Origin: a phage
Direction: 5' to 3' (one strand)
Sequence record: PZ452608.1
Length of the DNA stretch: 64,000 nt
In this document: in pieces, positions 52,729 through 63,556 of the stretch
How the letters are laid out: each line of letters opens with the position of its first letter
Position numbering within the stretch: position 1 is the first letter of the stretch
The notes under the pieces: generated by a model
Database searches by the model: none
The model's input: only the letters and a program-made list of their open reading frames with translations
What the model was told of the DNA's origin: nothing
Position numbers and translations under genes: made by a program

Positions 52729-53193
52729 TTACTTTGGGTATACACTGTCAAGATAAATGTCAGCTTCCATTCTACGTCTGTTTTTCAGTCCGTTTGAAGT
52801 GACCTTCTTACCTTTGACTGTAACCTTGTTCCACCACTGCATAGCTTCTGCACAACCCACCTTATTACCAGCATTGTGGCGCTTGATAAATGTGGAATCC
52901 TGCATAGCTGTGATACCAATGTTGTATGTTTCACTTACAAGTGCGTCAAACTCATTCTGAGAAGTTGGAACATTGACGGCTTTGTTCACTGCTGCAACAA
53001 ACTTTTCAACATCTGCGAGAAGATACTGTTCAGCTTGTTCAGCGGTAATCTTCATACCCATCTTAACAGGTTTTCCGTCAATACGGATTGTCCCATACCC
53101 GATTGTTGGGATTCCGGCAGAATCTTCGTAAGCCTCTAACTCCAGACCTTCGAAGAACTTAATAGCATCTAAACCTTTTCTTGAGAGTTGCAT
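52729..53193 (-). CDS. endolysin, phage lysozyme (GH24-like)
   Basis: FEGLELEAYEDSAGIPTIGYGT catalytic-region pattern of T4/lambda-type lysozymes. Confidence 0.75.
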   Translation of the reverse strand: MQLSRKGLDAIKFFEGLELEAYEDSAGIPTIGYGTIRIDGKPVKMGMKITAEQAEQYLLADVEKFVAAVNKAVNVPTSQNEFDALVSETYNIGITAMQDSTFIKRHNAGNKVGCAEAMQWWNKVTVKGKKVTSNGLKNRRRMEADIYLDSVYPK

Positions 53194-54326
53194 TACGCCT
53201 CCCCTGCTGGGTTAACTGTAACTGTTGCTGCATTAGATGTTACAGAGCCACCTGCACCAGTAACTACACAGGTGTAGCTTCCTGCATCAGCAGCGGTCGC
53301 ACCTTCTTTGGTGTAAGTTGCAGTAGTTGCATCGAGGATGTCTTCCTCACCTTTCTTCCACTGGTAACCTGTCGCACCTGTTGCCACAACATTCAGCGTT
53401 AAGGTCTCACCTTCATTGATTTCTTGATTGGTTGGCTGTTGAGTAATTACTGGAAGTGCGTTCACAGTTACTACAGCAGCATTAGATGTCACTGCACCAC
53501 CCGCACCTGTTACAACGCAAGTATATGAGCCTGCATCTGCTGGCAGAGCACCAGACTTGCTATAGGTAGCATTTGTAGCTGAAGGAATGTCAGAGCCATC
53601 TTTCTTCCACTGGTAACCTGTCGCACCTGTTGCAGTCACTTCCAAGTTAATGCTTCCACCCTCATTGACAGTCTGACCAGAAGGCTGCTGTGTAATCACA
53701 GGCAGTGCATTAACAGCAACTGTTGCCGCATCTGAGGTAACACTTGTTCCAGCCTCTCCAGATACAACACAAGTGTATGAGCCAGCATCAGAAGGTACTA
53801 CAGACTGTTTTGTATAAGTTGCAGAGGTGGCACTAGGAATATCCTCTCCATCCTTTTTCCATTGATATCCAGTGGCATTCGTTGCAATAACACTTAGGGT
53901 AAGCGTACCACCTTCATTTACTGTTTGATTGGTTGGTTGCTGAGTGATTGCTGGTGGCTTGATAGCATCCTTCAACTTAGCATTCAACATTGAGAATGGT
54001 TTAACTCTTGCCAGCCATTCACAATAAATTGTGTCAACGTCTTTACCATTGATAATTGCATATTGTAAGTCCATGAAGAAGTCAGAAGTTCTCATTTGAG
54101 CACCAATGCTGTAAAGCAACTCATCACTAAATGGAACTTTGTAGTCTGGTTTGTAGTCAAACTCATCGACTTCTGCAATATCAGCTTCAGGCCAATACGA
54201 ACTGTAGGTAAGCGGTAAAATAGCCTCTTGATATGTTCTAAAATCATATCTCTTACCAGCCTTTACGTTTGCAATGAAGCCCTTCACAAACTCTTTGAAG
54301 TCTGGGTAAGTCTTTGCTTTAATCAT
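53193..54326 (-). CDS. Ig-like domain repeat protein
   Basis: Three tandem repeats of about 85 aa (ITQQP.NQTVNEGG.L.L.V.AT.ATGYQWKK.G.DI...ATY.K...AGSYTCVV.G); N-terminal 125 aa paralogous to the upstream gene product. Confidence 0.55.
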   Translation of the reverse strand: MIKAKTYPDFKEFVKGFIANVKAGKRYDFRTYQEAILPLTYSSYWPEADIAEVDEFDYKPDYKVPFSDELLYSIGAQMRTSDFFMDLQYAIINGKDVDTIYCEWLARVKPFSMLNAKLKDAIKPPAITQQPTNQTVNEGGTLTLSVIATNATGYQWKKDGEDIPSATSATYTKQSVVPSDAGSYTCVVSGEAGTSVTSDAATVAVNALPVITQQPSGQTVNEGGSINLEVTATGATGYQWKKDGSDIPSATNATYSKSGALPADAGSYTCVVTGAGGAVTSNAAVVTVNALPVITQQPTNQEINEGETLTLNVVATGATGYQWKKGEEDILDATTATYTKEGATAADAGSYTCVVTGAGGSVTSNAATVTVNPAGEA

Positions 54327-55951: not shown

Positions 55952-56323
55952 ATGAAAAACAGAACAAACAAAGGCCAGTTTAAAAAAGGCCAATCTGGAA
56001 ACCCATCTGGAAGACCAAAAGGCTCTCGCAACAAAAGCTCACTTGTAAAAGCTCAACTGACCATTGATAATTCTGCTGAGTTTGCTGCAAAGTTGTTTGA
56101 AGCGATTGTTACAAGGGATGCTGCTAAGCTTGCAGAGTTCGGGTTAAACACAGACGATGTAACCATCAAGAGCATGATTGAAGTCGGTAAAACTATCATG
56201 ACCCACTCAGCAGGTGAGATGAAAGCAATTGCAGCAGACACTAAGAAGACTCCTGATAACGGCGGTCAGTCTCAGACAGATAACAAACCAACGTTCTCTG
56301 CTGTTGCAACCCTTAAAAAATAA
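55952..56323 (+). CDS. hypothetical protein with GNPSGRPKG motif
   Basis: 123 aa; N-terminal KGQSGNPSGRPKGSRN. Confidence 0.4.
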   Translation: MKNRTNKGQFKKGQSGNPSGRPKGSRNKSSLVKAQLTIDNSAEFAAKLFEAIVTRDAAKLAEFGLNTDDVTIKSMIEVGKTIMTHSAGEMKAIAADTKKTPDNGGQSQTDNKPTFSAVATLKK

Positions 56324-56404: not shown

Positions 56405-57820
56405 ATGAGCGAATTATTTAAACATGCGCACCTTCATGCAGGTCGAACTGAAAATGGTGCTGTAAACCATACTTCATCAATGTCTGCTCTTGTAGACTTT
56501 TACAAAGCTGCTGGTTCAAGCCGTAGCAATGTAGAAATCTTACCAGACCTGTTCTACAAAGCTTTGCGTGAGGATGTTGATGTTGCAGTTCGTATTTTAC
56601 TGCATATGCGAGATGTACGAGAAGGTATGGGTGAGCGTAAAGCCTTCAGAACTGTTTTACTTCAAGCGATTGAAGACAAAGTTTTAGAGTCTACGCAGGT
56701 TCTTCGCATTATGGATAAGATTGCAGAACTTGGTCGTTTTGATGACTTCAAAATCTTCGTAGGTACTCGTTTCGAGACAGATGCCTTCAAACACTTAGAA
56801 GCAGCATTACTAGACCCTGCAACAGCAGGTTTGGCGGCTAAGTGGTTACCACGAGTCAAACCACGTCATAAGCAGTTTGTAAAACGTTTCTGCAAGTTTG
56901 CCAACTTGAGTGAGAAAGAGTACCGCACACTGTTGTCTGCACTATCTGATACAGTTGAGCAAAAAATCTCTGCTAATGAGTTTGGTAAGATTGACTACAG
57001 TAAGATTCCTTCACTTGCTGCTGCACGTTACCAAAAACTGTTTAACCGTAAAGATGGAGAGCGTTACAAAGCTTACATCGAGTCCTTATCAAAAGGTGAG
57101 ACTAAGATTAACGCTGGTGCTGTTTACCCATACGATGTGATTAAATCTGTCAAGTATGGTAATGCAGATGTTGCTAATGAGCAGTGGAAAGCACTACCAA
57201 ACTGGATGGCAGAAGGTGAAAACATCTTGTGTATGTCTGATGTATCAAGTTCAATGTCTTGGGTGAATTTTGGCTCCATTACTGCTCTGGATATTGGTGT
57301 ATCACTTGCCTTGTATGTAGCAGAACGCAATACAGGTTGCTTTAAGAATGAGTTGATGGTTTATTCGACAAACCCTCACTTCATCGAACTGAGTGGTGAT
57401 TTACGAAACCGTCATCGTCAGGTGATGCGACACGTTGAATATGGCTCAACTAACTTACAAGCAGCTTTTGACCGCATTCTTGAAACAGGTAAAAGAAACA
57501 ACTTGACTCAGAAAGATATGCCAAGTAAGCTTATCATCTTCTCCGATATGGAGTTTAATCAGGTTGATGGAGCTAACGGTCGTACAAACTTTGAAGCAAT
57601 TCAGAGTAAGTACAAAAAAGCTGGATATGAGATGCCACAACTGGTATTCTGGTACTTAGCAAACCGTAATGGTACTTGCGAAGTATCTGTTAAGGATAAC
57701 GGTGTAGCAATGGTATCAGGGTTCTCTCCAGCCACTTTAAAAGCTCTGCTTGGTGGTGAGAAGTTTGACCCAATCAGTGTAATGCTCAAAGCAGTAATGA
57801 TTGACCGTTATATCTGGTAA
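56405..57820 (+). CDS. vWA (MIDAS) domain protein with N-terminal helical domain; possible Ro60/TROVE-like
   Basis: 471 aa; MIDAS-like DxSxS (CMSDVSSSMSW) and downstream IIFSDMEFN; long helical N-terminal region; TROVE assignment is inference only. Confidence 0.4.
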   Translation: MSELFKHAHLHAGRTENGAVNHTSSMSALVDFYKAAGSSRSNVEILPDLFYKALREDVDVAVRILLHMRDVREGMGERKAFRTVLLQAIEDKVLESTQVLRIMDKIAELGRFDDFKIFVGTRFETDAFKHLEAALLDPATAGLAAKWLPRVKPRHKQFVKRFCKFANLSEKEYRTLLSALSDTVEQKISANEFGKIDYSKIPSLAAARYQKLFNRKDGERYKAYIESLSKGETKINAGAVYPYDVIKSVKYGNADVANEQWKALPNWMAEGENILCMSDVSSSMSWVNFGSITALDIGVSLALYVAERNTGCFKNELMVYSTNPHFIELSGDLRNRHRQVMRHVEYGSTNLQAAFDRILETGKRNNLTQKDMPSKLIIFSDMEFNQVDGANGRTNFEAIQSKYKKAGYEMPQLVFWYLANRNGTCEVSVKDNGVAMVSGFSPATLKALLGGEKFDPISVMLKAVMIDRYIW

Positions 57821-57838: not shown

Positions 57839-57867
57839 TTGACAATGTGTTTAATACCCTTTAATAT
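57839..57867 (+). promoter_or_regulatory. sigma70-like promoter upstream of tRNA array
   Basis: TTGACA-17-TAATAT, overlapping AAGGGTA/TACCCTT inverted repeat. Confidence 0.5.
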
Positions 57868-57985
57868 GTTCTACATAGAAACGAAATGAGAGCTTTTCTA
57901 AGATGCTGAAAAATATTTTAAAAAAGTTCTTGACAACCACTAAAAAATAATGTTAAAGTGGTTACATAGAGTTTGAAAAGTTTAT

Positions 57986-58062
57986 CTCTGTTTAGCTCAG
58001 CTTGGTAGAGCGTTCCGTTTGGGGCGGTAAGGCCGGAGGTTCAAGTCCTCCAACAGAGACCA
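57986..58062 (+). tRNA. tRNA-Pro (anticodon TGG)
   Basis: Manual fold: 7-bp acceptor CTCTGTT/AACAGAG, GCTC/GAGC D-stem, loop TTTGGGG, T-arm GGAGG-TTCAAGT-CCTCC, CCA encoded. Confidence 0.75.
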
Positions 58063-58069
58063 AATTAAT

Positions 58070-58147
58070 GTTCCAGTAGACAAAATGGTAAAGTCACCAC
58101 TCTTTCAAAGTGGATATCTGAGGGTTCAAATCCCTTCTGGAACGCCA
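58070..58147 (+). tRNA. tRNA-Glu (anticodon TTC)
   Basis: Acceptor GTTCCAG/CTGGAAC, anticodon stem CCACT/AGTGG, loop CTTTCAA, CCA encoded. Confidence 0.7.
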
Positions 58148-58238
58148 GTTTTGACAGAAGACCAATTACAGCAAACTTAATCTACTCATCTGAAAGTTAA
58201 TCGGACAAAGAAGATATTTGGTCTGGTCATTAAGAATT

Positions 58239-58314
58239 GCGGGTATAGAGAAAGGGCGTCTCACATGTCTCATTAGCATGGTATCGGCAGGTTCGACTCC
58301 TGCACCCGCCTCCA
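58239..58314 (+). tRNA. tRNA with anticodon CAT (Met or Ile-lysidine type), atypical
   Basis: Acceptor GCGGGTA with one mismatch, D-stem GAGA/TCTC, anticodon stem CATGT/GCATG, loop CTCATTA (T at position 37), T-arm GCAGG-TTCGACT-CCTGC. Confidence 0.5.
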
Positions 58315-58398
58315 AATTTACAGAAGACCGTTTACAGCAATATTTATTAAATTTTTAGCGGAAAAAATTGAAAGATACGGTCTGGTAATACTAAACAT

Positions 58399-58475
58399 GG
58401 TTAGGAAGCACATAAGGTATGTGCGGTCGCCTGTTAAGCGAATGGCACAGGGTTCGAATCCCTGACTAACCGCCA
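58399..58475 (+). tRNA. tRNA-Asn (anticodon GTT)
   Basis: Acceptor GGTTAGG/ACTAACC (one mismatch), D-stem GCAC/GTGC, loop CTGTTAA, T-arm CAGGG-TTCGAAT-CCCTG. Confidence 0.65.
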
Positions 58476-58484
58476 AATTTAAAT

Positions 58485-58572
58485 GTGTCGTTATCCCGTA
58501 GATGGTAGCGGTGGGGACTGTAAATCCCTTGTCATTGAGACTCGGTAGGTTCGACTCCTACACGGCACACCA
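58485..58572 (+). tRNA. tRNA-Tyr (anticodon GTA), long variable arm
   Basis: 88 nt; acceptor GTGTCGT/ACGGCAC, loop CTGTAAA, T-arm GTAGG-TTCGACT-CCTAC. Confidence 0.7.
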
Positions 58573-58577
58573 ATAAA

Positions 58578-58655
58578 GGTTATGTAGTTTAATCTGGTTA
58601 AAATACTCCCCTGTCACGGGAGATGATGAGGGTTCGAATCCCTTCGTAACCGCCA
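58578..58655 (+). tRNA. tRNA-Asp (anticodon GTC)
   Basis: Acceptor GGTTATG/CGTAACC, anticodon stem CTCCC/GGGAG, loop CTGTCAC. Confidence 0.75.
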
Positions 58656-58838
58656 ATTTTGATAGGGCTATTTAGCCCCTCCCTTAAAGGGTTCTTACGA
58701 GTATTCTTTAAAGGAGCAGAAGACCAAATTCAGCAAGTTACTTAAAATTTCAAGCCAATTTAATTTTGAAAAATTTAAAACTTGGTCTGGCTCAACAAAT
58801 TTACAGAAGACCGTTTACAGCAAAACTTAAACAATCTA

Positions 58839-58912
58839 TTTCTCCGGTAAAGAAAAGGCGAAGGTTCGATTCCTTCACTCGGCAGATGTCGAGTTGGTGT
58901 AATGGTAGCACT
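58839..58912 (+). other. circularly permuted or rearranged tRNA-like gene (Thr-type anticodon GGT)
   Basis: 58839-58884 encodes anticodon arm (TTTCT-CCGGTAA-AGAAA), T-arm (GAAGG-TTCGATT-CCTTC), acceptor 3' strand ACTCGGC and discriminator; after a 3-nt linker, 58888-58912 encodes complementary acceptor 5' strand GTCGAGT plus D-arm (GTGT-AATGGTA-GCAC). Confidence 0.4.
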
Positions 58913-58943
58913 TAAGATGATAAACAACGGTCTGGTAATTACC

Positions 58944-59073
58944 TTTGTAGATAAGTTATTAAGCTTACTTGTGAGTATGCGACCACAAAGGGTGAATGGG
59001 TAAATTCTAGATTTAAACCCAAAAAGGCACATCGCTACAGACCTTAAGCAAGTCTGGGTAGCTTATCTACAAA
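58944..59073 (+). other. structured element: 12-bp perfect inverted repeat enclosing about 106 nt
   Basis: TTTGTAGATAAG (58944-58955) and CTTATCTACAAA (59062-59073); internal hairpin GGGTAAAT..ATTTAAACCC. Confidence 0.4.
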
Positions 59074-59084
59074 GATAATTTAAT

Positions 59085-59160
59085 GGAAGTGTAGCAGAAT
59101 GGTGATGCGGCAGACTTTTAATCTGACAGGCGATGGGTTCGAATCCCTCCACTTCTACCA
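59085..59160 (+). tRNA. tRNA-Lys (anticodon TTT)
   Basis: Acceptor GGAAGTG/CACTTCT (G-U at 1:72), loop CTTTTAA, T-loop TTCGAAT with weak T-stem, CCA encoded. Confidence 0.65.
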
Positions 59161-59164
59161 ATAT

Positions 59165-59241
59165 GGTTCAGTCGCAGATAAGGTAATGCAAGGGTCTCAT
59201 AAGCCCTATGAATGTGGGTTCGATTCCCATCTGAACCTCCA
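59165..59241 (+). tRNA. tRNA-Met (anticodon CAT)
   Basis: Acceptor GGTTCAG/CTGAACC, anticodon stem AGGGT/GCCCT, loop CTCATAA, T-arm TGGGTTCGATTCCCA. Confidence 0.7.
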
Positions 59242-59242
59242 A

Positions 59243-59318
59243 GCTGGTATAGTTAAGAAGGTTATAACACTCCCCTGATAAGGGAACATCGGTGGTTCGA
59301 TTCCACCTACCAGTACCA
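59243..59318 (+). tRNA. tRNA-Ile (anticodon GAT)
   Basis: Acceptor GCTGGTA/TACCAGT, D-stem GTTA/TAAC, loop CTGATAA, T-arm GGTGG-TTCGATT-CCACC. Confidence 0.75.
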
Positions 59319-59333
59319 ATTTCAATAAAGTTG

Positions 59334-59362
59334 TTGACATTGAGATGTGACTACTTTATAGT
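59334..59362 (+). promoter_or_regulatory. sigma70-like promoter inside tRNA array
   Basis: TTGACA-17-TATAGT. Confidence 0.5.
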
Positions 59363-59566
59363 AACCTTAGTTTTCGTTGCGTAGCGTCTATTTTGCAAAT
59401 TTAAAATAAATGCAAACGACAATGTTTTTCTGGCAGTAGCTTGATAGGCTAAACACCAGTGAGGTCTTCCAATCCCTCATCAAAGAATTTGGCGTACTAG
59501 CCCACGGTATGATTAATAAGGTGGGCATCTTTAAGGGCTTTCTAAGAGAGTCTTTAAAGATAATTA

Positions 59567-59648
59567 CGGGGCGTATCTCAGCGGTCTTCTAAACCGCCGT
59601 TAACCGAGTAAGTGGAGTATGCGGGTTCGAGTCCTGCCGCCTCGACCA
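59567..59648 (+). tRNA. atypical tRNA-like gene (possible anticodon TCT, Arg-type); no canonical D-arm
   Basis: Acceptor CGGGGCG/CGCCTCG, T-arm GCGGG-TTCGAGT-CCTGC, CCA; perfect stem-loop GCGGT-CTTCTAA-ACCGC only 7 nt after acceptor, plus 23-nt extra segment. Confidence 0.4.
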
Positions 59649-59797
59649 ATTTAGTTAGCAGATTACTTAGACGACCTAAACGGGTCTTCCTGTAGGGAGG
59701 TGGTCTGTATCTCATGTTTTCCAGAACATGTAAATAATCTGAGAAGGGGCTTTACAGTGTTGAGATAATACGGTAAGCTTTGAATTATAGTTTTAAT

Positions 59798-59868
59798 AGG
59801 GGTGAGCTATGGCAGCAATAGAGTCTCCAAAATTCTTGATTAGAGTTCGAATCTCTACACCCCTGCCA
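59798..59868 (+). tRNA. short tRNA, probable tRNA-Trp (anticodon CCA), reduced D-arm
   Basis: 71 nt; acceptor AGGGGTG/CACCCCT, anticodon arm AGAGT-CTCCAAA-ATTCT, T-arm TAGAG-TTCGAAT-CTCTA. Confidence 0.45.
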
Positions 59869-59882
59869 GAACAGGTGCTTGT

Positions 59883-60287
59883 ATGAAACTTTGTAGAAAA
59901 TGTTCTCAAGAAAAGCCTTTAAGCTGCTTTCATAAAAGAGGTAATGGCTATCAGTCTGCTTGTAAAGATTGTAAAGCTAAGTACTCAGCAAAGAGATACA
60001 AAGAAGACCCTACTTATAAAGCAAAAAGAAAAGTTAGGGCAAAATATGACAAAAAGAGGAACAGAGAGTTCCTTAGTAGATATAAAAAGTTTTGCAAATG
60101 CAGAATATGTGGCGAATCTGAGCCAGTAGCTTTGGATTTTCATCACTTAGACCCTAAAGAGAAAGATTTTGCTCCAAGCAATCTTAAAACTTACTCTAGA
60201 GGCACTATTAAGCGTGAAGTCCGTAAGTGTGTTGTGCTTTGTTCAAACTGTCATAGGAAAGTTCATGCAGGACTGTTAAGTATTTAA
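59883..60287 (+). CDS. HNH homing endonuclease
   Basis: 134 aa with CRKC, CKDC, CRIC cysteine pairs, HH motif (LDFHHLDP) and CSNCHRKVH; embedded in tRNA array. Confidence 0.6.
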   Translation: MKLCRKCSQEKPLSCFHKRGNGYQSACKDCKAKYSAKRYKEDPTYKAKRKVRAKYDKKRNREFLSRYKKFCKCRICGESEPVALDFHHLDPKEKDFAPSNLKTYSRGTIKREVRKCVVLCSNCHRKVHAGLLSI

Positions 60288-60300
60288 CAGTCTTATTAGG

Positions 60301-60388
60301 GGTAGGTAGCGGCTAATGGCAGCCAAACAGTCTTGAAAACTGTTGCCACTGTAGAGATACGGTGAGGGTTCGACTCCTTTACTTACCG
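60301..60388 (+). tRNA. tRNA-Ser (anticodon TGA), long variable arm; CCA not encoded
   Basis: Acceptor GGTAGGT/ACTTACC, anticodon arm ACAGT-CTTGAAA-ACTGT, 20-nt variable arm. Confidence 0.7.
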
Positions 60389-60544
60389 CCTAATAAGATT
60401 TACTCCGTCCATGCTTGTTCGCATTGTCGGTTTATCCCTCGTGTATTGTCGTACACTGTCAAAGCACCTAGTAGGTGTCACGGAGAAGAGATAATATCAA
60501 GCTCTCCAAAGGTTCTAGTCACCGGATTAAACAAGACTATGCAA

Positions 60545-60565
60545 AGACCTATTTAGGTCTTTTTA
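60545..60565 (+). terminator. intrinsic terminator inside tRNA array
   Basis: AGACC-TATTT-AGGTCT then TTTTT. Confidence 0.5.
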
Positions 60566-60644
60566 GAGGGCTTCTAAGGTTATTAGTCGCTTGTTGTGGA
60601 ACCTTGTTGCTCAGGTTCTTAGAAGTTCTCTAAAAAGATTTAAT

Positions 60645-60721
60645 GCACCTATAGCCCAACTGGTAGAGGCAGCAGACTTAGAATCTGCTCAGTGTGAGTT
60701 CGAATCTCTCTAGGTGTACCA
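60645..60721 (+). tRNA. tRNA with Leu-type anticodon TAG but short (type I) variable loop
   Basis: Acceptor GCACCTA/TAGGTGT, anticodon arm GCAGA-CTTAGAA-TCTGC, 5-nt variable loop, T-arm GTGAG-TTCGAAT-CTCTC. Confidence 0.55.
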
Positions 60722-60728
60722 AATTAAT

Positions 60729-60804
60729 GCAGGTGTAGCAAAATGGTTATGCGGCTGACTCTTAATCAGTAAGACGATGGGTTCAATTCCCTCCACCTGT
60801 ACCA
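60729..60804 (+). tRNA. tRNA-Lys (anticodon CTT)
   Basis: Acceptor GCAGGTG/CACCTGT, anticodon arm GCTGA-CTCTTAA-TCAGT, T-loop TTCAATT. Confidence 0.6.
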
Positions 60805-60810
60805 AACAAT

Positions 60811-60886
60811 GGGGTCATAGTTTATATGGTTAAAATTCGAGTTTTGCAAACTTGGGAACTGAGTTCAATTCTCAGTGACTCCACCA
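60811..60886 (+). tRNA. tRNA-Ala (anticodon TGC)
   Basis: Acceptor GGGGTCA/TGACTCC, anticodon arm CGAGT-TTTGCAA-ACTTG, T-arm CTGAG-TTCAATT-CTCAG. Confidence 0.7.
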
Positions 60887-60892
60887 ATTAGT

Positions 60893-60967
60893 GCATCCAT
60901 AGTTTAAACGGGAAAATTACAGTCTTCCAAACTGAGGTTGAGGGTTCGATTCCCTCTGGATGCTCCA
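60893..60967 (+). tRNA. tRNA-Gly (anticodon TCC)
   Basis: Acceptor GCATCCA/TGGATGC, loop CTTCCAA, T-arm GAGGG-TTCGATT-CCCTC. Confidence 0.7.
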
Positions 60968-60974
60968 AATTAAT

Positions 60975-61050
60975 GCTCCTATCGTATAATTGGTTATTAC
61001 GGTTGCCTTGTAAGCAACTTATCAGGGTTCGAGTCCTTGTGGGAGCACCA
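60975..61050 (+). tRNA. tRNA-Thr (anticodon TGT)
   Basis: Acceptor GCTCCTA/TGGGAGC, anticodon arm GTTGC-CTTGTAA-GCAAC, T-arm CAGGG-TTCGAGT-CCTTG. Confidence 0.75.
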
Positions 61051-61146
61051 ATTCGGAGGTCAAGTGAAAGACCGCTTTGAGTCAACTGAAGACCGTAACA
61101 AATTCCACGAAGTTGAGTTAGCGGCACAACTTCAGACCTCTTTCAT

Positions 61147-61221
61147 ACTCGCTTAGTTTATATGGTAAAACATCACCCTTACAAGATGAAGAAAAAGGTT
61201 CAAGTCCTTTAGTGAGTACCA
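61147..61221 (+). tRNA. tRNA-Val (anticodon TAC)
   Basis: Acceptor ACTCGCT/AGTGAGT, loop CTTACAA, T-arm AAAGG-TTCAAGT-CCTTT. Confidence 0.65.
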
Positions 61222-61222
61222 T

Positions 61223-61300
61223 GTTCCAGTATCCCAATTGGCAGAGGATGCAAGCTCAAACCTTGTATTAGTGACGGTTCGAATCCGTCTTGGAACACCA
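61223..61300 (+). tRNA. tRNA with Leu-type anticodon CAA but short (type I) variable loop
   Basis: Acceptor GTTCCAG/TTGGAAC, anticodon arm (AT)GCAAG-CTCAAAC-CTTGT(AT), T-arm GACGG-TTCGAAT-CCGTC. Confidence 0.55.
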
Positions 61301-61305
61301 ATTTT

Positions 61306-61381
61306 GCAGGATTAGTTCAAATGGAAAGAGCAACAGTCTACGAAGCTGTTAATAGGGGTTCGAATCCCTTATCCTGCGCCA
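61306..61381 (+). tRNA. tRNA-Arg (anticodon ACG)
   Basis: Acceptor GCAGGAT/ATCCTGC, anticodon arm ACAGT-CTACGAA-GCTGT, T-arm AGGGG-TTCGAAT-CCCTT. Confidence 0.7.
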
Positions 61382-61398
61382 GATAAAAAGGTGATACT

Positions 61399-61641
61399 AT
61401 GCAAACATTAACAGTAGTTGAACATGAAAACTGTGAGAGTATTGAGTTTGTCAGGGTCATTGGTGTTGAACACCACATTTTCTTAAAAGTGGGATACTTA
61501 TGTGACCCCACTAGAGTAGAAAGATTTATACGTGATTGTTTTGGTGGTAGACATCTGAAGAGTGTTATTTTTGAGACAGTTTTACCAGAAGGTTTAGAAA
61601 CGAATAATAACATTTACCTCCTTACGAGGATTAGACAATGA
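61399..61641 (+). CDS. hypothetical protein
   Basis: 80-aa ORF inside tRNA array, AAAGGTGA RBS. Confidence 0.4.
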   Translation: MQTLTVVEHENCESIEFVRVIGVEHHIFLKVGYLCDPTRVERFIRDCFGGRHLKSVIFETVLPEGLETNNNIYLLTRIRQ

Positions 61642-62195
61642 GATACTTAAAGTATGCTTCATGGATTTTCTTAGCTTTGTTAGAGCCATTTGCAGCAATC
61701 TTAGCAGTTATCTTAGCACCTTTTGTAGTTCCATTCTACAGTGAGAAGAAAGGACACTTGCCTTTCGGGTTCAGATGGATGGAGACTTATGACAACCCAA
61801 TTGATGGTGATGCAGGTCATATCAAACGATGGGCTAAGATTAGAAAGATTGGTAAGCTTGGTGTCTACATGCAGAGAGTTGGATGGCTCTGGAGAAACAA
61901 AGCTTATAACTTCTCTTACCATGTATTAGGAAGAGATGTAAAAGATGTTACTAAGTGGAAAGGTAATATCAACGTAAGTTCTAACCCTGAAGATAATCAG
62001 ACTGGTTATCTCCTAATGTGGAACAGTAATGCTTGGGGGTTATTCGCTTTTGTGCCGTCAATCAAAATCTTTGGTAAACAATTTTACTGGAGAATTTATA
62101 TTGGGTGGAAACTTAAAAGCGTTGTCCCAGAAGAAAGAGCATTTTCAAGGGAAAGAGTTATGTTGGCATTCTTTATTCATCCACTAAGAAAGTAA
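61638..62195 (+). CDS. membrane protein
   Basis: N-terminal TM (WIFLALLEPFAAILAVILAPFVVPF); 185 aa. Confidence 0.4.
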   Translation: MRYLKYASWIFLALLEPFAAILAVILAPFVVPFYSEKKGHLPFGFRWMETYDNPIDGDAGHIKRWAKIRKIGKLGVYMQRVGWLWRNKAYNFSYHVLGRDVKDVTKWKGNINVSSNPEDNQTGYLLMWNSNAWGLFAFVPSIKIFGKQFYWRIYIGWKLKSVVPEERAFSRERVMLAFFIHPLRK

Positions 62196-62203
62196 AGATT
62201 TAA

Positions 62204-62279
62204 AGGGGATTAGTTTACAAGGTTAAAACCTCGGTCTTTGAAATCGAAGAAGTTGGTTCAATTCCAACATCCCCCGCCA
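62204..62279 (+). tRNA. tRNA-Gln (anticodon TTG)
   Basis: Acceptor AGGGGAT/ATCCCCC (1:72 mismatch), anticodon arm TCGGT-CTTTGAA-ATCGA, T-arm GTTGG-TTCAATT-CCAAC. Confidence 0.65.
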
Positions 62280-62281
62280 AT

Positions 62282-62360
62282 GCTCCATTACTCCAATTGG
62301 CAGAGAGGCCAGACTTAAAATCTGTGTTATGTATCGGTTCGAATCCGATATGGAGTACCA
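62282..62360 (+). tRNA. tRNA with Leu-type anticodon TAA but short variable loop
   Basis: Acceptor GCTCCAT/ATGGAGT, anticodon arm CCAGA-CTTAAAA-TCTGT, T-arm ATCGG-TTCGAAT-CCGAT; D-arm paralogous to 61223-61300. Confidence 0.55.
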
Positions 62361-62365
62361 AATTT

Positions 62366-62441
62366 AGCGGTATAGCATAACTGGCAATGCAGCAGTCTCT
62401 GAAGCTGTCCTATTAAGGTTCAAATCCTTATGCCGCTGCCA
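62366..62441 (+). tRNA. tRNA-Gln (anticodon CTG)
   Basis: Acceptor AGCGGTA/TGCCGCT, D-stem GCAT/ATGC, loop CTCTGAA, T-arm TAAGG-TTCAAAT-CCTTA. Confidence 0.7.
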
Positions 62442-62472
62442 CTTCTAAGGATTCTTACGAGAGTCCTTAAAT

Positions 62473-62548
62473 GTGGCCTTATCATAAATGGTAATGACCC
62501 ATGCTGTGAACATGGTCTATACGGGTTCAAATCCCGTAGGTCACCCCA
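62473..62548 (+). tRNA. tRNA-His (anticodon GTG)
   Basis: Acceptor GTGGCCT/AGGTCAC, anticodon arm CCATG-CTGTGAA-CATGG, T-arm ACGGG-TTCAAAT-CCCGT. Confidence 0.75.
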
Positions 62549-62553
62549 ATTTA

Positions 62554-62630
62554 TAGTCCAAGTAGCTTATATGGTTAAAGCGCGTGTCTGAAAAACATGA
62601 GAAGAGGGTTCAAATCCCACTGGACTACCA
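62554..62630 (+). tRNA. tRNA-Phe (anticodon GAA)
   Basis: Acceptor TAGTCCA/TGGACTA, anticodon arm CGTGT-CTGAAAA-ACATG, T-loop TTCAAAT; exact 5' boundary uncertain by 1 nt. Confidence 0.65.
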
Positions 62631-62646
62631 ATTTCAAAGGTGCTTA

Positions 62647-63381
62647 ATGAAAGAGATGACAGAACAAGGTAAGGAGATTTTCAATCTCTTAAAAACCGGT
62701 AAAGGGTTTTCTAACCCCCTTATTACTGGTGCAGCAGTTCTCGGTGGAACCGTAGCTGCCTCTACATCACTTGTAAGCTCTATTAGCTCTGTATCAGACC
62801 CTACAGTAAAGGATAAGCTTGTTGCTGCTGGACTTACAACAGTTCTGCTTAACAGCTTTACCACGAGTCTGACAAGCACTACATCAACTACCAAAACACT
62901 AACAGATTACGGTCAAAAGTCCATTGATGAGTTTTCATCACGTATGCAGGTAGCAAAAGGTTACTCAAATGTTATGGGTGCAGCAGGTGAACAAGTTGGC
63001 TGTACACCATTTAGTGGTATTATGGGTGTTGCTACAGAGTATGGTCAAAAAGCTATTGATACGATTAACAGTGCACTAGATAGTGTTAATGGTGTGTTAA
63101 GTGACTTACAAGATGCTATTGACAAAGGTCTTGATACTATTTCTGATTTAGCTGAGCAAGCTGTTAGTAAGATTAATGAAGGTATTTCAAAAATTACAGC
63201 TTATGCAGATGAAGTTGTGCAGATGATTGAAGAAGAAGCTGCTCTTATTGCAGAGTACCTTAAAACGAATATCAATGGGTTCTTAGCAGGTATCTTACCA
63301 GACTGGTTTGATGATGCTTGTAAAACTGGTGTAATTGACACTATTGCAACACCAGAAATGAAGAACGCATTACAGAAATAA
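62647..63381 (+). CDS. hypothetical Ser/Thr-rich protein
   Basis: Track ORF starts inside tRNA-Phe; start moved to first ATG after the tRNA (MKEMTEQGK). Confidence 0.4.
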   Translation: MKEMTEQGKEIFNLLKTGKGFSNPLITGAAVLGGTVAASTSLVSSISSVSDPTVKDKLVAAGLTTVLLNSFTTSLTSTTSTTKTLTDYGQKSIDEFSSRMQVAKGYSNVMGAAGEQVGCTPFSGIMGVATEYGQKAIDTINSALDSVNGVLSDLQDAIDKGLDTISDLAEQAVSKINEGISKITAYADEVVQMIEEEAALIAEYLKTNINGFLAGILPDWFDDACKTGVIDTIATPEMKNALQK

Positions 63382-63383
63382 AT

Positions 63384-63476
63384 GGAAGATTAACCCTAAA
63401 AGGTAAGGGAGCAGTTTGCTAAACTGCCAGTAGCTGAGAAATCGGTGTACCAGTTCAAGTCTGGTATCTTCCTCCA
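63384..63476 (+). tRNA. tRNA-Ser (anticodon GCT), long variable arm
   Basis: 93 nt; acceptor GGAAGAT/ATCTTCC, anticodon arm GCAGT-TTGCTAA-ACTGC. Confidence 0.75.
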
Positions 63477-63480
63477 ATTT

Positions 63481-63556
63481 GAATCCGTGACAGAAACGGC
63501 TATGTGCCTGTCTGCAAAACAGGTTTATAAGGGTTCGAGTCCCTTCGGATTCTCCA
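63481..63556 (+). tRNA. tRNA-Cys (anticodon GCA)
   Basis: Acceptor GAATCCG/CGGATTC, anticodon arm CCTGT-CTGCAAA-ACAGG, T-arm AAGGG-TTCGAGT-CCCTT. Confidence 0.75.

What the first reader, a model, noticed from the sequence alone, without database searches (positions are those of the whole stretch)
57986..63556. Large tRNA array with atypical members
Seen in sequence: about 27 tRNA or tRNA-like genes by manual folding, covering Pro, Glu, Asn, Tyr, Asp, Lys (TTT and CTT), Met/Ile-type CAT (two), Ile, Ser (TGA and GCT), Ala, Gly, Thr, Val, Arg, Gln (TTG and CTG), His, Phe, Cys and probable Trp. Three tRNAs carry Leu-type anticodons (TAG, CAA, TAA) yet have short type-I variable loops, whereas bacterial tRNA-Leu is type II, so identity and charging are unclear. 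One CAT tRNA has an unpaired first acceptor pair and T at position 37. Several acceptor or T stems carry mismatches. The array also hosts an HNH endonuclease gene, two small ORFs, internal promoters and a terminator.
Basis: seen in the sequence. Interest (0 to 1): 0.5.

Follow-up and report, generated by a model that had tools for sequence, protein, structure and literature searches.

The report
Phage tRNA island with Y-like RNAs
This is the already published tRNA gene cluster of a Felix O1-like coliphage. Its three leucine tRNAs really lack the usual long arm, which I found to be common in phages, and the cluster also hides four unannotated Y-RNA-like genes next to a Ro60-like protein.

Summary
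Window 57986-63556 holds 26 ARAGORN tRNAs, 25 of which reach Rfam's tRNA threshold, plus one D-arm-less Arg(UCU)-like gene. All are on the + strand and together carry anticodons for all 20 amino acids.

The DNA is 100% identical to the annotated tRNA island of phage wV8 / O157 typing phage 8 (Felixounavirus), so the array itself is known.

The three Leu-anticodon tRNAs do have 5-7-nt variable regions. They keep every E. coli LeuRS determinant I could read (A73, U8/A14, A15/U48, the G18G19 D loop) and match leuW/X/Z apart from the arm. The Ser and Tyr tRNAs keep their arms. Arm-less tRNA-Leu is common in unrelated phages (20 of 28 distinct sequences sampled) but absent from T4 and T5. I found no paper describing it.

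The CAT tRNA with an open 1:72 pair is the homologue of T5's initiator tRNA.

They lie just downstream of a Ro60-fold protein (56405-57820). A covariance model finds this RNA beside homologues of that protein in 59 of 80 viral loci, always on the gene's strand. No Rfam family matches it.

The parts
56405..57820 (+). Ro60-fold protein (wV8 gp47; Pfam DUF2828 + DUF7788; vWA MIDAS motif DVSSSM at residues 279-284)
   Evidence: Pfam and PHROG 850 'RNA-binding protein'. AF2 model with pLDDT 86.9. The top 12 Foldseek PDB hits are all Ro60 proteins, E 4.5e-7 to 1.2e-5, aligned over the full length.
57839..57867 (+). sigma-70-like promoter (TTGACA-17-TAATAT)
   Evidence: consensus match only
57930..57959 (+). 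sigma-70-like promoter (TTGACA-18-TAAAGT, extended -10 TG), 27 nt before the first tRNA
   Evidence: consensus match only
57986..58062 (+). tRNA-Pro(TGG)
   Evidence: 57.7 bits
58070..58147 (+). tRNA-Glu(TTC)
   Evidence: 60.4 bits
58156..58230 (+). Y-RNA-like gene U1 (short form: closing helix AGACCAA/TTGGTCT plus the UUACAGCAA motif)
   Evidence: CM R1 25.7 bits, E 3.5e-4; repeat family D12; fold
58238..58314 (+). initiator-type tRNA(CAT): U1.C72 mismatch, U73, U37; same acceptor stem and near-identical T arm as T5 tRNA-fMet
   Evidence: ARAGORN; 71% identical to T5 tRNA-fMet; the mismatch is kept, with compensatory T-stem changes, in L009
58322..58389 (+). Y-RNA-like gene U2 (short form)
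   Evidence: CM R1 32.0 bits, E 1.6e-5; D12
58399..58475 (+). tRNA-Asn(GTT)
   Evidence: 48 bits
58485..58572 (+). tRNA-Tyr(GTA), long variable arm kept (88 nt)
   Evidence: ARAGORN; called a pseudo-tRNA by tRNAscan in the Felix O1 and wV8 records
58578..58655 (+). tRNA-Asp(GTC)
   Evidence: 65.3 bits
58718..58794 (+). Y-RNA-like gene U3 (short form)
   Evidence: CM R1 26.0 bits, E 3e-4; D12
58805..58939 (+). Y-RNA-like gene U4 (long form). Order: closing helix, UUACAGCAA, then a circularly permuted tRNA-like domain made of anticodon-stem strand, long V hairpin, T arm, 7-bp closed acceptor hairpin, D arm, anticodon-stem strand.
   Evidence: CM R1 91.4 bits, E 4e-18; MFE fold; conserved in L007-L011
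59085..59160 (+). tRNA-Lys(TTT)
   Evidence: 54.4 bits
59165..59241 (+). second tRNA(CAT), U73; Met elongator or Ile2 (lysidine) type, not resolved
   Evidence: (55.6 bits)
59243..59318 (+). tRNA-Ile(GAT)
   Evidence: 62.3 bits
59334..59362 (+). internal sigma-70-like promoter (TTGACA-17-TATAGT, 11 of 12)
   Evidence: consensus match only
59567..59648 (+). tRNA-Arg(UCU)-like gene with 4 nt in place of the D arm, a ~20-nt extra region, A73 and CCA
   Evidence: Rfam tRNA 31.7 bits with the alignment shown. 97.6-100% conserved in L008, L009 and L011, which lack the canonical Arg(tct) found in L007 and L010.
59798..59868 (+). tRNA-Trp(CCA), 71 nt, reduced D arm, G73
   Evidence: ARAGORN; Rfam 33.2 bits; T5 tRNA-Trp is also 71 nt
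59883..60287 (+). HNH endonuclease gene. The Trp + HNH segment is present only in wV8-type records.
   Evidence: PHROG 2255, E 1.5e-45; weak Pfam HNH hit; absent from L007-L011
60301..60390 (+). tRNA-Ser(TGA), long arm; the only gene without an encoded CCA
   Evidence: (31.1 bits)
60645..60721 (+). tRNA-Leu(TAG), variable region 5 nt (type I), A73
   Evidence: (57.3 bits)
60729..60804 (+). tRNA-Lys(CTT)
   Evidence: 56.9 bits
60811..60886 (+). tRNA-Ala(TGC)
   Evidence: 56.9 bits
60893..60967 (+). tRNA-Gly(TCC)
   Evidence: 59.6 bits
60975..61050 (+). tRNA-Thr(TGT)
   Evidence: 59.5 bits
61147..61221 (+). tRNA-Val(TAC)
   Evidence: 60 bits
61223..61300 (+). tRNA-Leu(CAA), variable region 6 nt (type I), A73
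   Evidence: (44 bits)
61306..61381 (+). tRNA-Arg(ACG)
   Evidence: 59.5 bits
61399..61641 (+). ORF, 80 aa, PHROG 14202, function unknown
61638..62195 (+). ORF, 185 aa, Pfam DUF7338
62204..62279 (+). tRNA-Gln(TTG)
   Evidence: 56.6 bits
62282..62360 (+). tRNA-Leu(TAA), variable region 7 nt (type I), A73
   Evidence: (47.5 bits)
62366..62441 (+). tRNA-Gln(CTG)
   Evidence: 57 bits
62473..62548 (+). tRNA-His(GTG)
   Evidence: 53.3 bits
62555..62630 (+). tRNA-Phe(GAA)
   Evidence: 45 bits
62647..63381 (+). ORF, 244 aa, Pfam DUF7217
63384..63476 (+). tRNA-Ser(GCT), long arm (93 nt)
   Evidence: 46.2 bits
63481..63556 (+). tRNA-Cys(GCA)
   Evidence: 56.3 bits
63719..63746 (+). terminator-like hairpin followed by a T run, downstream of the array
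   Evidence: consensus match only

Best explanation
The region is the tRNA island of a Felix O1-like virulent coliphage (wV8 / O157 typing phage 8).

Transcription and processing (inferred). The genes are co-directional and appear to be transcribed from host-type promoters as long precursors. Host tRNA-processing enzymes would cut these precursors. 25 of the 26 genes already encode CCA.

Role of the tRNAs (codon bias shown, function inferred). The island supplies one decoder set for all 20 amino acids, biased to U34 and G34 anticodons that suit the phage's A/T-rich codons. This supplements the host pool and probably buffers the phage when host tRNAs are depleted or cleaved.

The three Leu tRNAs. 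They are genuine leucine acceptors. They have lost the long variable arm but keep all determinants that E. coli LeuRS uses. The retained determinants are shown here; charging is inferred. Arm loss is tolerated for Leu only, because SerRS and TyrRS need the arm. This fits what is seen: phage Ser and Tyr tRNAs keep it.

Other atypical members. The CAT tRNA with an open 1:72 pair is a phage initiator-type tRNA, as in T5.

Y-RNA-like genes. Four Y-RNA-like RNAs lie between the first tRNAs. Their structure and their association with the gene are shown. Processing of the flanking tRNAs would release them, and they most likely bind the Ro60-fold protein encoded just upstream to form a phage Ro/Y-type RNP. 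Both the release and the binding are inferred. A preprint links the homologous protein in phage Bas63 to countering a host defence system.
For: Identity of the locus. 100% identical over 5.8 kb to KP869106, with 99.98-100% identity to NC_012749 and EU877232; tRNAs are annotated there. Published as Felix O1 / wV8 tRNA clusters.

tRNA calls. ARAGORN finds 26; Rfam reaches threshold for 25 plus one tRNA-like gene.

Codon fit. The window is 38.7% GC. TTA, TTG and CTA make up 49% of Leu codons, AGA 28% of Arg codons, and A/T-ending codons dominate. The Felix O1 paper reaches the same conclusion.

Leu identity.
- Segment-by-segment collinearity with E. coli leuW/leuX/leuZ, except a variable region of 5-7 nt against 13-15 nt. 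A73, U8/A14, A15/U48 and the 3-bp D stem with NAAYYGGYAGA loop are all kept.
- E. coli determinants are A73, A14, A15-U48, G18G19 and A20a; the arm is dispensable (review; Fan 2019 introduction).
- Isotype models score Leu highest for the Sf14 homologues: 67.4, 49.1 and 60.2.
- No G3:U70 pair and no long arm or G73, so AlaRS and SerRS are unlikely to charge them (sequence).

Selection. 20 type I phage Leu tRNAs all have intact stems of differing sequence and A73.

Natural experiment. In 80 viral loci chosen without regard to tRNAs, 19 of 23 Leu tRNAs are short, about 36 of 37 Ser are long, and 9 of 9 Tyr are long.

Initiator. The first CAT tRNA shares its acceptor stem, and a near-identical T arm, with T5 tRNA-fMet.

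Ro/Y.
- gp47 has the Ro60 fold.
- U1-U4 are the four best hits of model R1 in 9 kb scanned on both strands.
- In the 80 loci there are 105 hits that are not tRNAs, all on the gene's strand. 59 of 80 loci have at least one, 45 within 500 nt of the gene.
- The closing helix is 95.9% paired, and all 7 pairs show compensatory changes.
- Independent case: Enterococcus phage Bop has two such RNAs about 250 nt upstream of a homologue (31% identity, E 1e-74).
- Bas63 gp130 (Felixounavirus) is Ro60-like and counters the ppl system.
Against: - No expression, processing or aminoacylation data exist for these genes.
- Fan et al. 2019 report that E. coli LeuRS did not charge the natural type I tRNALeu(CAA) of Streptomyces coelicolor. 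Charging of arm-less Leu tRNAs by the host enzyme cannot be taken for granted.
- Bas63 tRNAs were mostly non-essential on four laboratory hosts, so any benefit is conditional.
- Several members have weak stems (both Lys tRNAs, Phe, Asn) or aberrant arms (the Arg-like gene, Trp) and may be poorly functional.
- Promoter-like sites are no more frequent than in shuffled sequence.
- For the Y-like RNAs, binding to gp47 is inferred from position and architecture only. The YrlA sequence motif GNCGAAN0-1G is not conserved in this family. The alignment used for the pair counts was fitted to the model. 20 of 80 loci gave no hit.
Confidence: 0.8

Rival explanations
1. The arm-less Leu-anticodon genes are decaying pseudogenes or non-translational tRNA-like RNAs such as decoys. 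They are not working leucine tRNAs.
For: E. coli LeuRS failed to charge a natural type I tRNALeu from Streptomyces. Leu(tag) has a U.U in its T stem and Leu(taa) a C.U at 27:43. tRNAs of the related phage Bas63 are dispensable on laboratory hosts.
Against: Rfam scores of 44-57 bits and ARAGORN scores of 108-120. Every LeuRS determinant is retained. Homologues in phages of Proteobacteria, Actinobacteria and Firmicutes have differing, fully paired stems and an invariant A73. Their anticodons match codons enriched in the phage.
Confidence: 0.08
2. The type I tRNAs with Leu anticodons are charged with a different amino acid, so the phage recodes CUA/UUR codons.
For: Loss of the class II arm removes one feature that separates Leu from class I tRNAs.
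Against: Synthetases that read the anticodon would not accept UAG, CAA or UAA (established identity rules). There is no G3:U70 for AlaRS and no long arm or G73 for SerRS. The Leu isotype model scores best for all three homologues. Phage proteins align normally with homologues when translated with table 11.
Confidence: 0.03
3. U1-U4 are not ligands of the Ro-like protein. They are cis-acting spacers of the tRNA operon (processing signals, attenuators, recombination or homing sites) or simply repeats.
For: They lie inside a polycistronic tRNA cluster. U1-U3 are small and AT-rich, with modest CM scores of 26-32 bits. The canonical YrlA motif is not conserved. 20 of 80 Ro-gene loci show no hit. 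Many hits lie directly after the gene, where a 3' UTR or terminator element would also sit.
Against: The elements occur both upstream and downstream of the gene, often in 2-5 copies, and in wV8 are separated from it by tRNAs. The long form copies the YrlA plan exactly: a 5'/3' stem, an internal loop with a conserved 5' motif, and a permuted tRNA-like domain. The helix covaries strongly while the loop motif UnCnGCAA stays invariant. No hits apart from tRNA cross-matches appear in tRNA clusters whose fetched stretch holds no Ro-like gene: T4, T5, Koguma, StarPlatinum and KaOmega.
Confidence: 0.25
4. The array exists only for codon-usage compensation. Its atypical features (short Leu arm, altered anticodon loops, weak stems) are neutral drift allowed by relaxed constraint in a fast-evolving phage.
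For: The Felix O1 paper's codon argument and my codon counts. LeuRS does not need the arm, so its loss can be neutral. Phages with type II and type I Leu tRNAs coexist, even within one genome (StarPlatinum, Bop).
Against: The arm is lost in several apparently independent lineages. Three type I tRNAs have 5' halves closer to type II phage tRNAs than to any other type I tRNA. This hints at selection, but the sequences are short and the test is weak. A full 20-amino-acid set exceeds what codon bias alone requires. Published work shows that phage tRNAs rescue infection from tRNA-cleaving defences (cited).
Confidence: 0.45

Closest known systems
tRNA clusters of Salmonella phage Felix O1 and Escherichia phage wV8 (Whichard et al. 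2010; Villegas et al. 2009)
   Same: The same DNA: 100% identity to KP869106, and 99.98-100% to the wV8 records. Same gene order and same anticodons. Leu TAG/CAA/TAA are listed as ordinary tRNA-Leu.
   Different: Those papers and records do not mention the short variable loops, the initiator nature of the first CAT tRNA, the Arg(UCU)-like gene or the Y-like RNAs. RefSeq places doubtful ORFs over several tRNAs and over U4.
tRNA clusters of coliphages T4 and T5
   Same: Co-directional tRNA arrays interrupted by homing endonuclease genes (segB; hegA-E) and small stable RNAs. T5 has an initiator tRNA with the same acceptor stem and near-identical T arm as the window's first CAT tRNA, and a 71-nt tRNA-Trp.
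   Different: T4 (87 nt) and T5 (85 nt) tRNA-Leu keep 15- and 13-nt variable regions. R1 found no Y-like RNA in the fetched T4/T5 tRNA regions.
Natural type I tRNA-Leu: Streptomyces coelicolor tRNALeu(CAA) (Fan et al. 2019) and animal mitochondrial tRNALeu
   Same: A leucine anticodon with a 5-nt variable loop, A73 and U8-A14 retained, coexisting with type II Leu tRNAs in one compartment.
   Different: Here all phage-encoded Leu tRNAs are type I. They are expected to be charged by the host's LeuRS, since no synthetase domain turned up among the few ORFs I scanned. Fan et al. reported that E. coli LeuRS did not charge the Streptomyces type I tRNA.
Bacterial and phage Ro60 (Rsr) with YrlA/YrlB Y RNAs (Chen et al. 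2014; Wang et al. 2018; Thermus phage phiLo Ro60-Yrl1/2, 2025)
   Same: A ring-shaped TROVE+vWA protein, with small RNAs encoded within a few kb on the same strand. A stem formed by the 5' and 3' ends plus an internal loop with a conserved 5'-side motif. A long form carrying a circularly permuted tRNA-like domain with a closed acceptor stem, sometimes a long V arm, alongside a short form.
   Different: The protein belongs to Pfam DUF2828/DUF7788, not TROVE, and is similar to Ro60 only at fold level. The conserved RNA motif is UnCnGCAA instead of GNCGAAN0-1G. The RNAs are embedded in a tRNA array. No Rfam family matches.
Bas63 gp130 (PhageMaP preprint 2024)
   Same: A Felixounavirus protein directly upstream of the tRNA genes, noted as structurally Ro60-like and shown to counter the ppl defence system.
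   Different: The authors only guessed that some annotated tRNAs might be Y RNAs. The candidates found here lie in the unannotated spacers. I did not compare gp130 and gp47 sequences directly.

Membership tests
tRNA (Rfam RF00005 / ARAGORN cloverleaf) | Covariance-model score at or above the gathering score (29 bits), or an ARAGORN cloverleaf | tested here: met
   24 genes at GA in the window scan, plus Trp at 33.2 bits in a local scan. The first CAT tRNA and Tyr are called by ARAGORN only.
tRNA-Leu as substrate of E. coli LeuRS | Discriminator A73 | tested here: met
   All three window genes, and all correctly parsed phage Leu tRNAs sampled, have A73.
tRNA-Leu as substrate of E. coli LeuRS | Core elements: U8-A14, A15-U48, G18G19 and A20a in a 3-bp D stem with an 11-nt D loop | tested here: met
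   D arm GCC/CAACTGGTAGA/GGC and its equivalents, against E. coli GCG/AAATTGGTAGA/CGC. The last variable-region base is T in all. Determinant list taken.
Bacterial class II (type II) tRNA-Leu | Long variable arm of more than 10 nt forming a hairpin | tested here: not met
   Variable regions of 5, 6 and 7 nt, against 13-15 nt in leuW/X/Z.
tRNA-Leu as substrate of E. coli LeuRS | Actual leucylation and use in translation | not testable with these tools
   Needs aminoacylation assays or tRNA-seq. One published negative result for a foreign type I tRNALeu with E. coli LeuRS.
Bacterial initiator tRNA (tRNA-fMet) | Unpaired 1:72, with G2-C71 and C3-G70 in the acceptor stem | tested here: met
   U1.C72, G2-C71, C3-G70. 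Acceptor TGCGGGT/ACCCGC is identical to T5 tRNA-fMet and close to E. coli metZ CGCGGGG/CCCCGC.
Bacterial initiator tRNA (tRNA-fMet) | Three consecutive G-C pairs at the base of the anticodon stem, and A73 | tested here: not met
   Anticodon stem is CATGT/GCATG and the discriminator is U. T5 tRNA-fMet also lacks the three G-C pairs and has U73.
Ro60 / TROVE proteins | HEAT-repeat ring followed by a vWA domain with a MIDAS motif | tested here: met
   Foldseek's top 12 hits are all Ro60, full length, TM up to 0.65. Helical residues ~28-263, then an alpha/beta domain. D279, S281 and S283 are invariant.
Ro60 / TROVE proteins | Sequence-level match to the Pfam TROVE domain or to solved Ro60 chains | tested here: not met
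   Pfam gives DUF2828 + DUF7788 only. The profile against PDB sequences gives Ro60 at E 0.5-0.9.
Y RNA / YrlA class | Encoded near a Ro60 orthologue on the same strand | tested here: met
   U1-U4 lie 336-1119 nt downstream of gp47 on the + strand. All 105 non-tRNA hits in the 80 loci are on the gene's strand, and 45 loci have one within 500 nt.
Y RNA / YrlA class | Stem formed by the 5' and 3' ends, enclosing an internal loop with a conserved 5'-side sequence | tested here: met
   Closing helix 95.9% paired with compensatory changes at all 7 pairs. TnCnGCA is invariant in the 14 seeds and present in 103 of 105 hits.
Y RNA / YrlA class | Circularly permuted tRNA-like domain (T arm, closed acceptor stem, D arm) | tested here: met
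   Present in U4 and in 45 long hits. The architecture matches the published description. U1-U3 lack it, as YrlB does.
Y RNA / YrlA class | Conserved GNCGAAN0-1G motif; match to existing models | tested here: not met
   GGCGAAG occurs in U4 but is not conserved (GGAGAAG in L010) and is absent from other members. No Rfam hit.
Y RNA / YrlA class | Physical binding to the Ro protein | not testable with these tools
   Needs RIP-seq or EMSA.
Felixounavirus tRNA island | Nucleotide identity and synteny with deposited genomes | tested here: met
   100% over 5801 nt to KP869106 and KP869109, and 99.98-100% to EU877232 and NC_012749. 192 records cover at least 80% of the query.

The most novel reading that the evidence does not exclude
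Loss of the long variable arm from tRNA-Leu is a recurrent, selected phage adaptation rather than drift. It would make the phage's own leucine decoders invisible to host factors that recognise class II tRNAs by that arm, such as defence tRNases of the Schlafen type or toxins. LeuRS could still charge them. The neighbouring Ro60-like protein with its newly recognised Y-like RNA family would work in the same conflict over tRNA integrity. On this reading, phage tRNA islands are counter-defence cassettes, not just codon-bias patches.
Probability: 0.2. Interest if true: 0.8.

Novelty: new variant of a known kind. Interest (0 to 1): 0.5.

Why it matters
The array itself adds nothing new, because it is a published locus. 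Two things inside it are worth recording.

First, bacteriophages of very different hosts routinely carry leucine tRNAs without the class II arm, while their Ser and Tyr tRNAs keep it. This is a natural, large-scale confirmation that bacterial LeuRS does not need the arm. It offers a ready set of substrates for asking what the arm is for. It also raises a testable idea: phages may shed the arm to escape arm-recognising nucleases.

Second, the spacers of this well-known phage family encode a distinct family of Y-RNA-like RNAs. Some are circularly permuted tRNA mimics. They are found beside DUF2828-type Ro60-fold proteins in most of 80 diverse viral loci. This turns the 2024 guess that some Bas63 tRNAs might be Y RNAs into concrete candidate genes. 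It also widens the Ro/Y RNP world well beyond proteins annotated as TROVE.

Both points affect annotation. The RefSeq ORFs laid over these RNAs are probably spurious.

Tried and rejected
1. A regex for the YrlA motif GNCGAAN0-1G placed just before a T arm found only true tRNAs. The match in U4 is coincidental and the motif is not a family feature.
2. Automatic choice of the closing helix picked wrong outer helices in six loci. I set the boundaries by hand.
3. Sequence and profile searches of gp47 against PDB chains were not significant. Only the fold search settled the Ro60 relationship.
4. I read the weak Rfam hits in the region as artefacts of tRNA sequences, their antisense strands or AT-rich hairpins. 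These were Plastid-ycf2 on the minus strand of tRNAs, tmRNA_permuted at 59260-59444, tmRNA at 59376-59565, and microRNA families.
5. I folded and compared the T4 rnaC/rnaD and T5 stable RNAs. They show no relation to the Y-like family, and the R1 hit in T4 is a tRNA cross-match.
6. Lower-ranking R1 hits in the window (62303, 59255, 59808, 61160 and others) overlap tRNAs and were discarded.
7. The minus-strand ORFs annotated in wV8 RefSeq over tRNAs and over U4 (gp48, gp50, 51A, 52) have no independent support here and overlap well-scoring RNA genes.
8. The nearest-neighbour test for independent arm losses was partly spoiled by a duplicated label (L004). Only the L041, L042 and L069 results are usable.
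9. Literature searches for phage type I tRNA-Leu found nothing. The library lacks most subscription journals, so this is weak negative evidence. Two Ro/Y reviews could not be read.

Full report
**What is there.** ARAGORN reports 26 tRNA genes between 57986 and 63556, all on the + strand. Rfam's tRNA model reaches its gathering score for 24 genes in the whole-window scan. It adds a tRNA-like gene at 59567-59645. The 71-nt Trp(cca) gene also passes in a local scan (33.2 bits). 25 of the 26 genes encode CCA; Ser(tga) is the exception.

**The locus is already published.** The 5.8-kb stretch is 100% identical to E. coli O157 typing phages 8 and 11, with 99.98-100% identity to phage wV8. More than 190 Felix O1-like genomes carry most of it. 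The tRNAs are annotated in those records, and the clusters are described in the wV8 and Felix O1 genome papers. So the array is real, far beyond chance, and known.

**The Leu tRNAs: structure.** ARAGORN and Infernal agree that the tRNAs with anticodons TAG, CAA and TAA are 74-76 nt before CCA. Their variable regions are 5, 6 and 7 nt. I fetched E. coli K-12 leuW, leuX and leuZ and laid them out segment by segment against the phage genes.
- Acceptor stem, 3-bp D stem, 11-nt D loop (host AAATTGGTAGA; phage CAACTGGTAGA or CAATTGGCAGA), anticodon arm, T arm and A73 are collinear.
- Only the variable region differs: 13-15 nt in the host against 5-7 nt in the phage. It ends in GT in both.

**The Leu tRNAs: identity.** The literature gives the E. 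coli LeuRS determinants as A73, A14, A15-U48, G18G19 and A20a. It states that the long arm and the anticodon are not needed. All of these determinants are present.
- Other synthetases are unlikely. There is no G3:U70, no long arm with G73, and the anticodons would not be read by the anticodon-dependent enzymes.
- A 2025 paper on the related phage Sf14 tabulates tRNAscan isotype scores. Leu is the top model for all three homologues.
- That paper never mentions the variable loop.

I therefore read them as leucine tRNAs that have lost the arm. The main caveat is Fan et al. 2019, who found that E. coli LeuRS did not charge the natural type I tRNALeu of Streptomyces coelicolor.

**This is a general phage habit.** BLAST of the Leu(tag) gene found near-full-length, ungapped matches annotated tRNA-Leu in unrelated phages. 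These were phages of Mycobacterium, Streptomyces, Gordonia, Enterococcus, Klebsiella/Cronobacter and Pseudomonas, plus a crAss-like phage.
- Four fetched examples confirm 74-80-nt Leu genes beside 84-97-nt Ser genes.
- In 80 IMG/VR loci chosen for an unrelated reason (see below), 19 of 23 Leu tRNAs are short. About 36 of 37 Ser and all 9 Tyr are long. Outside the five Felix-like loci the split is 6 short to 4 long.
- Overall, 20 of 28 distinct phage Leu sequences have 5-7-nt variable regions. All correctly parsed ones have A73, and their stems are paired but different in sequence.
- Some short-arm genes have host-like D arms and 5' halves closer to type II phage genes than to other type I genes. 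This suggests more than one loss, but the test is weak.
- T4 (87 nt) and T5 (85 nt) keep the arm. That may be why the pattern has gone unremarked.

My searches found no paper describing it, but the library is incomplete.

**Codon fit.** The window is 38.7% GC. TTA, TTG and CTA make up 49% of Leu codons, so these three tRNAs fit the classical codon-compensation role.

**Other atypical members.**
- The CAT tRNA at 58238 (U1.C72, U37, U73) shares its acceptor stem, and a near-identical T arm, with T5's annotated initiator tRNA-fMet. Its acceptor also resembles E. coli metZ. A relative keeps the mismatch as C.C, with compensatory T-stem changes. The open first pair is the initiator hallmark, not damage. 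Like the T5 gene, it lacks the three G-C pairs of the anticodon stem.
- The second CAT tRNA remains unassigned (Met elongator or Ile2).
- The 59567-59648 gene has an Arg UCU anticodon arm, 4 nt in place of the D arm and a ~20-nt extra region. It is conserved in exactly those relatives that lack the canonical tRNA-Arg(tct) found in the same slot elsewhere. AGA is 28% of phage Arg codons. Whether the gene works is open.
- Trp(cca), together with the HNH gene, is present only in wV8-type genomes. It looks like a mobile cassette, as with segB in T4 and the heg genes in T5.

**The unexpected part: a Ro60-fold protein.** The spacers after tRNA-Glu, the first CAT tRNA and tRNA-Asp contain four copies of CAGAAGACCnnTTACAGCAA, each followed 40-110 nt later by nnGGTCTGG. 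The variable dinucleotides covary (CCAA/TTGG or CCGT/ACGG). The fourth unit encloses, in order, a T arm, a closed 7-bp acceptor-like hairpin and a D arm. That is a circularly permuted tRNA, the design of bacterial YrlA Y RNAs.

The gene immediately upstream (56405-57820) is Pfam DUF2828/DUF7788.
- A 30-sequence alignment gave an AlphaFold model with pLDDT 86.9.
- Its 12 best PDB matches are all Ro60 proteins, including Thermus phage phiLo Ro60.
- A 2024 preprint had already noted that the corresponding Bas63 protein (Felixounavirus) looks like Ro60. It showed that the protein counters the ppl defence, and it guessed that some annotated tRNAs might be Y RNAs.

**The unexpected part: the RNA family.** I fetched 80 viral loci encoding homologues of this protein.
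- A simple search for a T arm followed directly by a hairpin found permuted tRNA-like elements in about 20 loci. All were on the gene's strand, and all carried an invariant TnCnGCA motif that was not part of the search.
- RNAalifold recovered the closing helix and T arm, with compensatory changes in 15 of 16 pairs.
- A covariance model built from 14 seeds gave 126 hits in the 80 loci, all on the gene's strand.
- After removing tRNA cross-matches, 105 hits remain. 103 carry the motif. They fall in 59 loci, 45 of which have a hit within 500 nt of the gene. About half are short forms without the tRNA-like domain.
- The closing helix is 95.9% paired, with compensatory changes at all seven positions. 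The alignment is model-fitted, which inflates such counts.
- In the window, the four best hits over 9 kb on both strands are U4 (91.4 bits), U2, U3 and U1.
- Enterococcus phage Bop, fetched only for its tRNA-Leu, has two long forms about 250 nt upstream of a homologue of the protein.
- No Rfam family matches any of these elements.

**How it most likely works.**
- *Shown:* gene content, structures, conservation, codon bias, the Ro60 fold, and the RNA-gene association.
- *Inferred:* transcription from the TTGACA promoters at 57839/57930 and 59334, and processing of the precursor by host RNase P and 3' trimming, which would also free U1-U4 lying between tRNAs.
- *Inferred:* charging of the Leu tRNAs by host LeuRS, and supplementation and buffering of the tRNA pool.
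- *Inferred:* assembly of gp47 with the Y-like RNAs into an RNP acting in RNA surveillance or counter-defence.

**Verdict.** The finding as given is a correct description of a known locus, with an over-cautious reading of the Leu tRNAs. Its added value lies in two points. Arm-less tRNA-Leu is a widespread and apparently undescribed phage trait. A distinct Y-like RNA family is partnered with DUF2828-type Ro60-like proteins.

Noticed in passing
window 59567-59648; L008 10224-10305, L009 11102-11183, L011 10693-10774: A tRNA-Arg(UCU)-like gene with no D arm and a ~20-nt extra region. It is conserved at 97.6-100% in the Felix-like genomes that lack the canonical tRNA-Arg(tct). L007 and L010 carry the canonical gene in the same slot, so these look like alternative alleles.
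   Followed up: partly
window 59798-60287: A cassette of a 71-nt tRNA-Trp plus an HNH endonuclease gene. It is present only in wV8-type records and absent from five IMG/VR Felix-like loci. T5's tRNA-Trp is also 71 nt with a reduced D arm.
   Followed up: partly
L007 10731-10808, L008 10892-10969, L010 10883-10960: Some Felix-like phages carry a quite different type I tRNA-Leu(tag) allele in the slot that holds the window's Leu(tag). This suggests cassette-like replacement of individual tRNA genes.
   Followed up: no
L036 9152-9295, L057 6604-6703, L081 8525-8641: In these Y-like RNAs the loop of the acceptor-like hairpin begins with (A/G)CCA right after the 3' strand. An RNase P-type cut would leave a tRNA-like CCA end, as reported for M. 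smegmatis YrlA.
   Followed up: no
window 58937-59080: A 22-nt inverted repeat (91% complementary) encloses 100 nt. The enclosed stretch includes a mini hairpin, CAGAC-CTTAAGCAA-GTCTG, that resembles the Y-like motif. RefSeq annotates a minus-strand ORF here (gp48).
   Followed up: no
window 60553-60643: A long hairpin with 26-nt arms (85% complementary) lies directly upstream of tRNA-Leu(tag). Its function is unknown; it could be a processing site or a small RNA.
   Followed up: no
window ~58683-58716 and ~62443-62472: Two hairpins share the loop sequence TTCTTACGAG. One lies before U3 and the other between tRNA-Gln(ctg) and tRNA-His.
   Followed up: no
L034 8605-9054; L006 4301-4648; L031 12696-12922: Viral loci with the Ro-like gene and tRNA arrays also carry a tmRNA (Rfam 75 bits in L034; ssrA annotated in phage Bop). 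One of them carries a group I intron (71.5 bits).
   Followed up: no
L004 4001-4170 (Streptomyces phage StarPlatinum); L006 3825-4068 (Enterococcus phage Bop): A type I and a longer-armed tRNA-Leu sit close together in the same phage: 76 and 82 nt, both tag, in StarPlatinum; 76 nt (tag) and 86 nt (taa) in Bop. Both forms can coexist in one genome.
   Followed up: partly
L090 4502-4645 (phage T5 'RNA1'): T5's annotated 'tRNA-like stable RNA' RNA1 begins like the 5' part of a tRNA-Leu (GCCGGAATTGGTAGACGG) and ends with a T arm, with a large insertion in between.
   Followed up: no
window 59085-59160 and 60729-60804: The two Lys tRNAs are 82% identical paralogues. They share a T stem with only three paired positions (ATGGG/CCCTC).
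   Followed up: no
window 53193-54326 (-) and 55952-56323 (+): Upstream neighbours are a 377-aa protein with three immunoglobulin-like domains and a DUF5681 protein.
   Followed up: no
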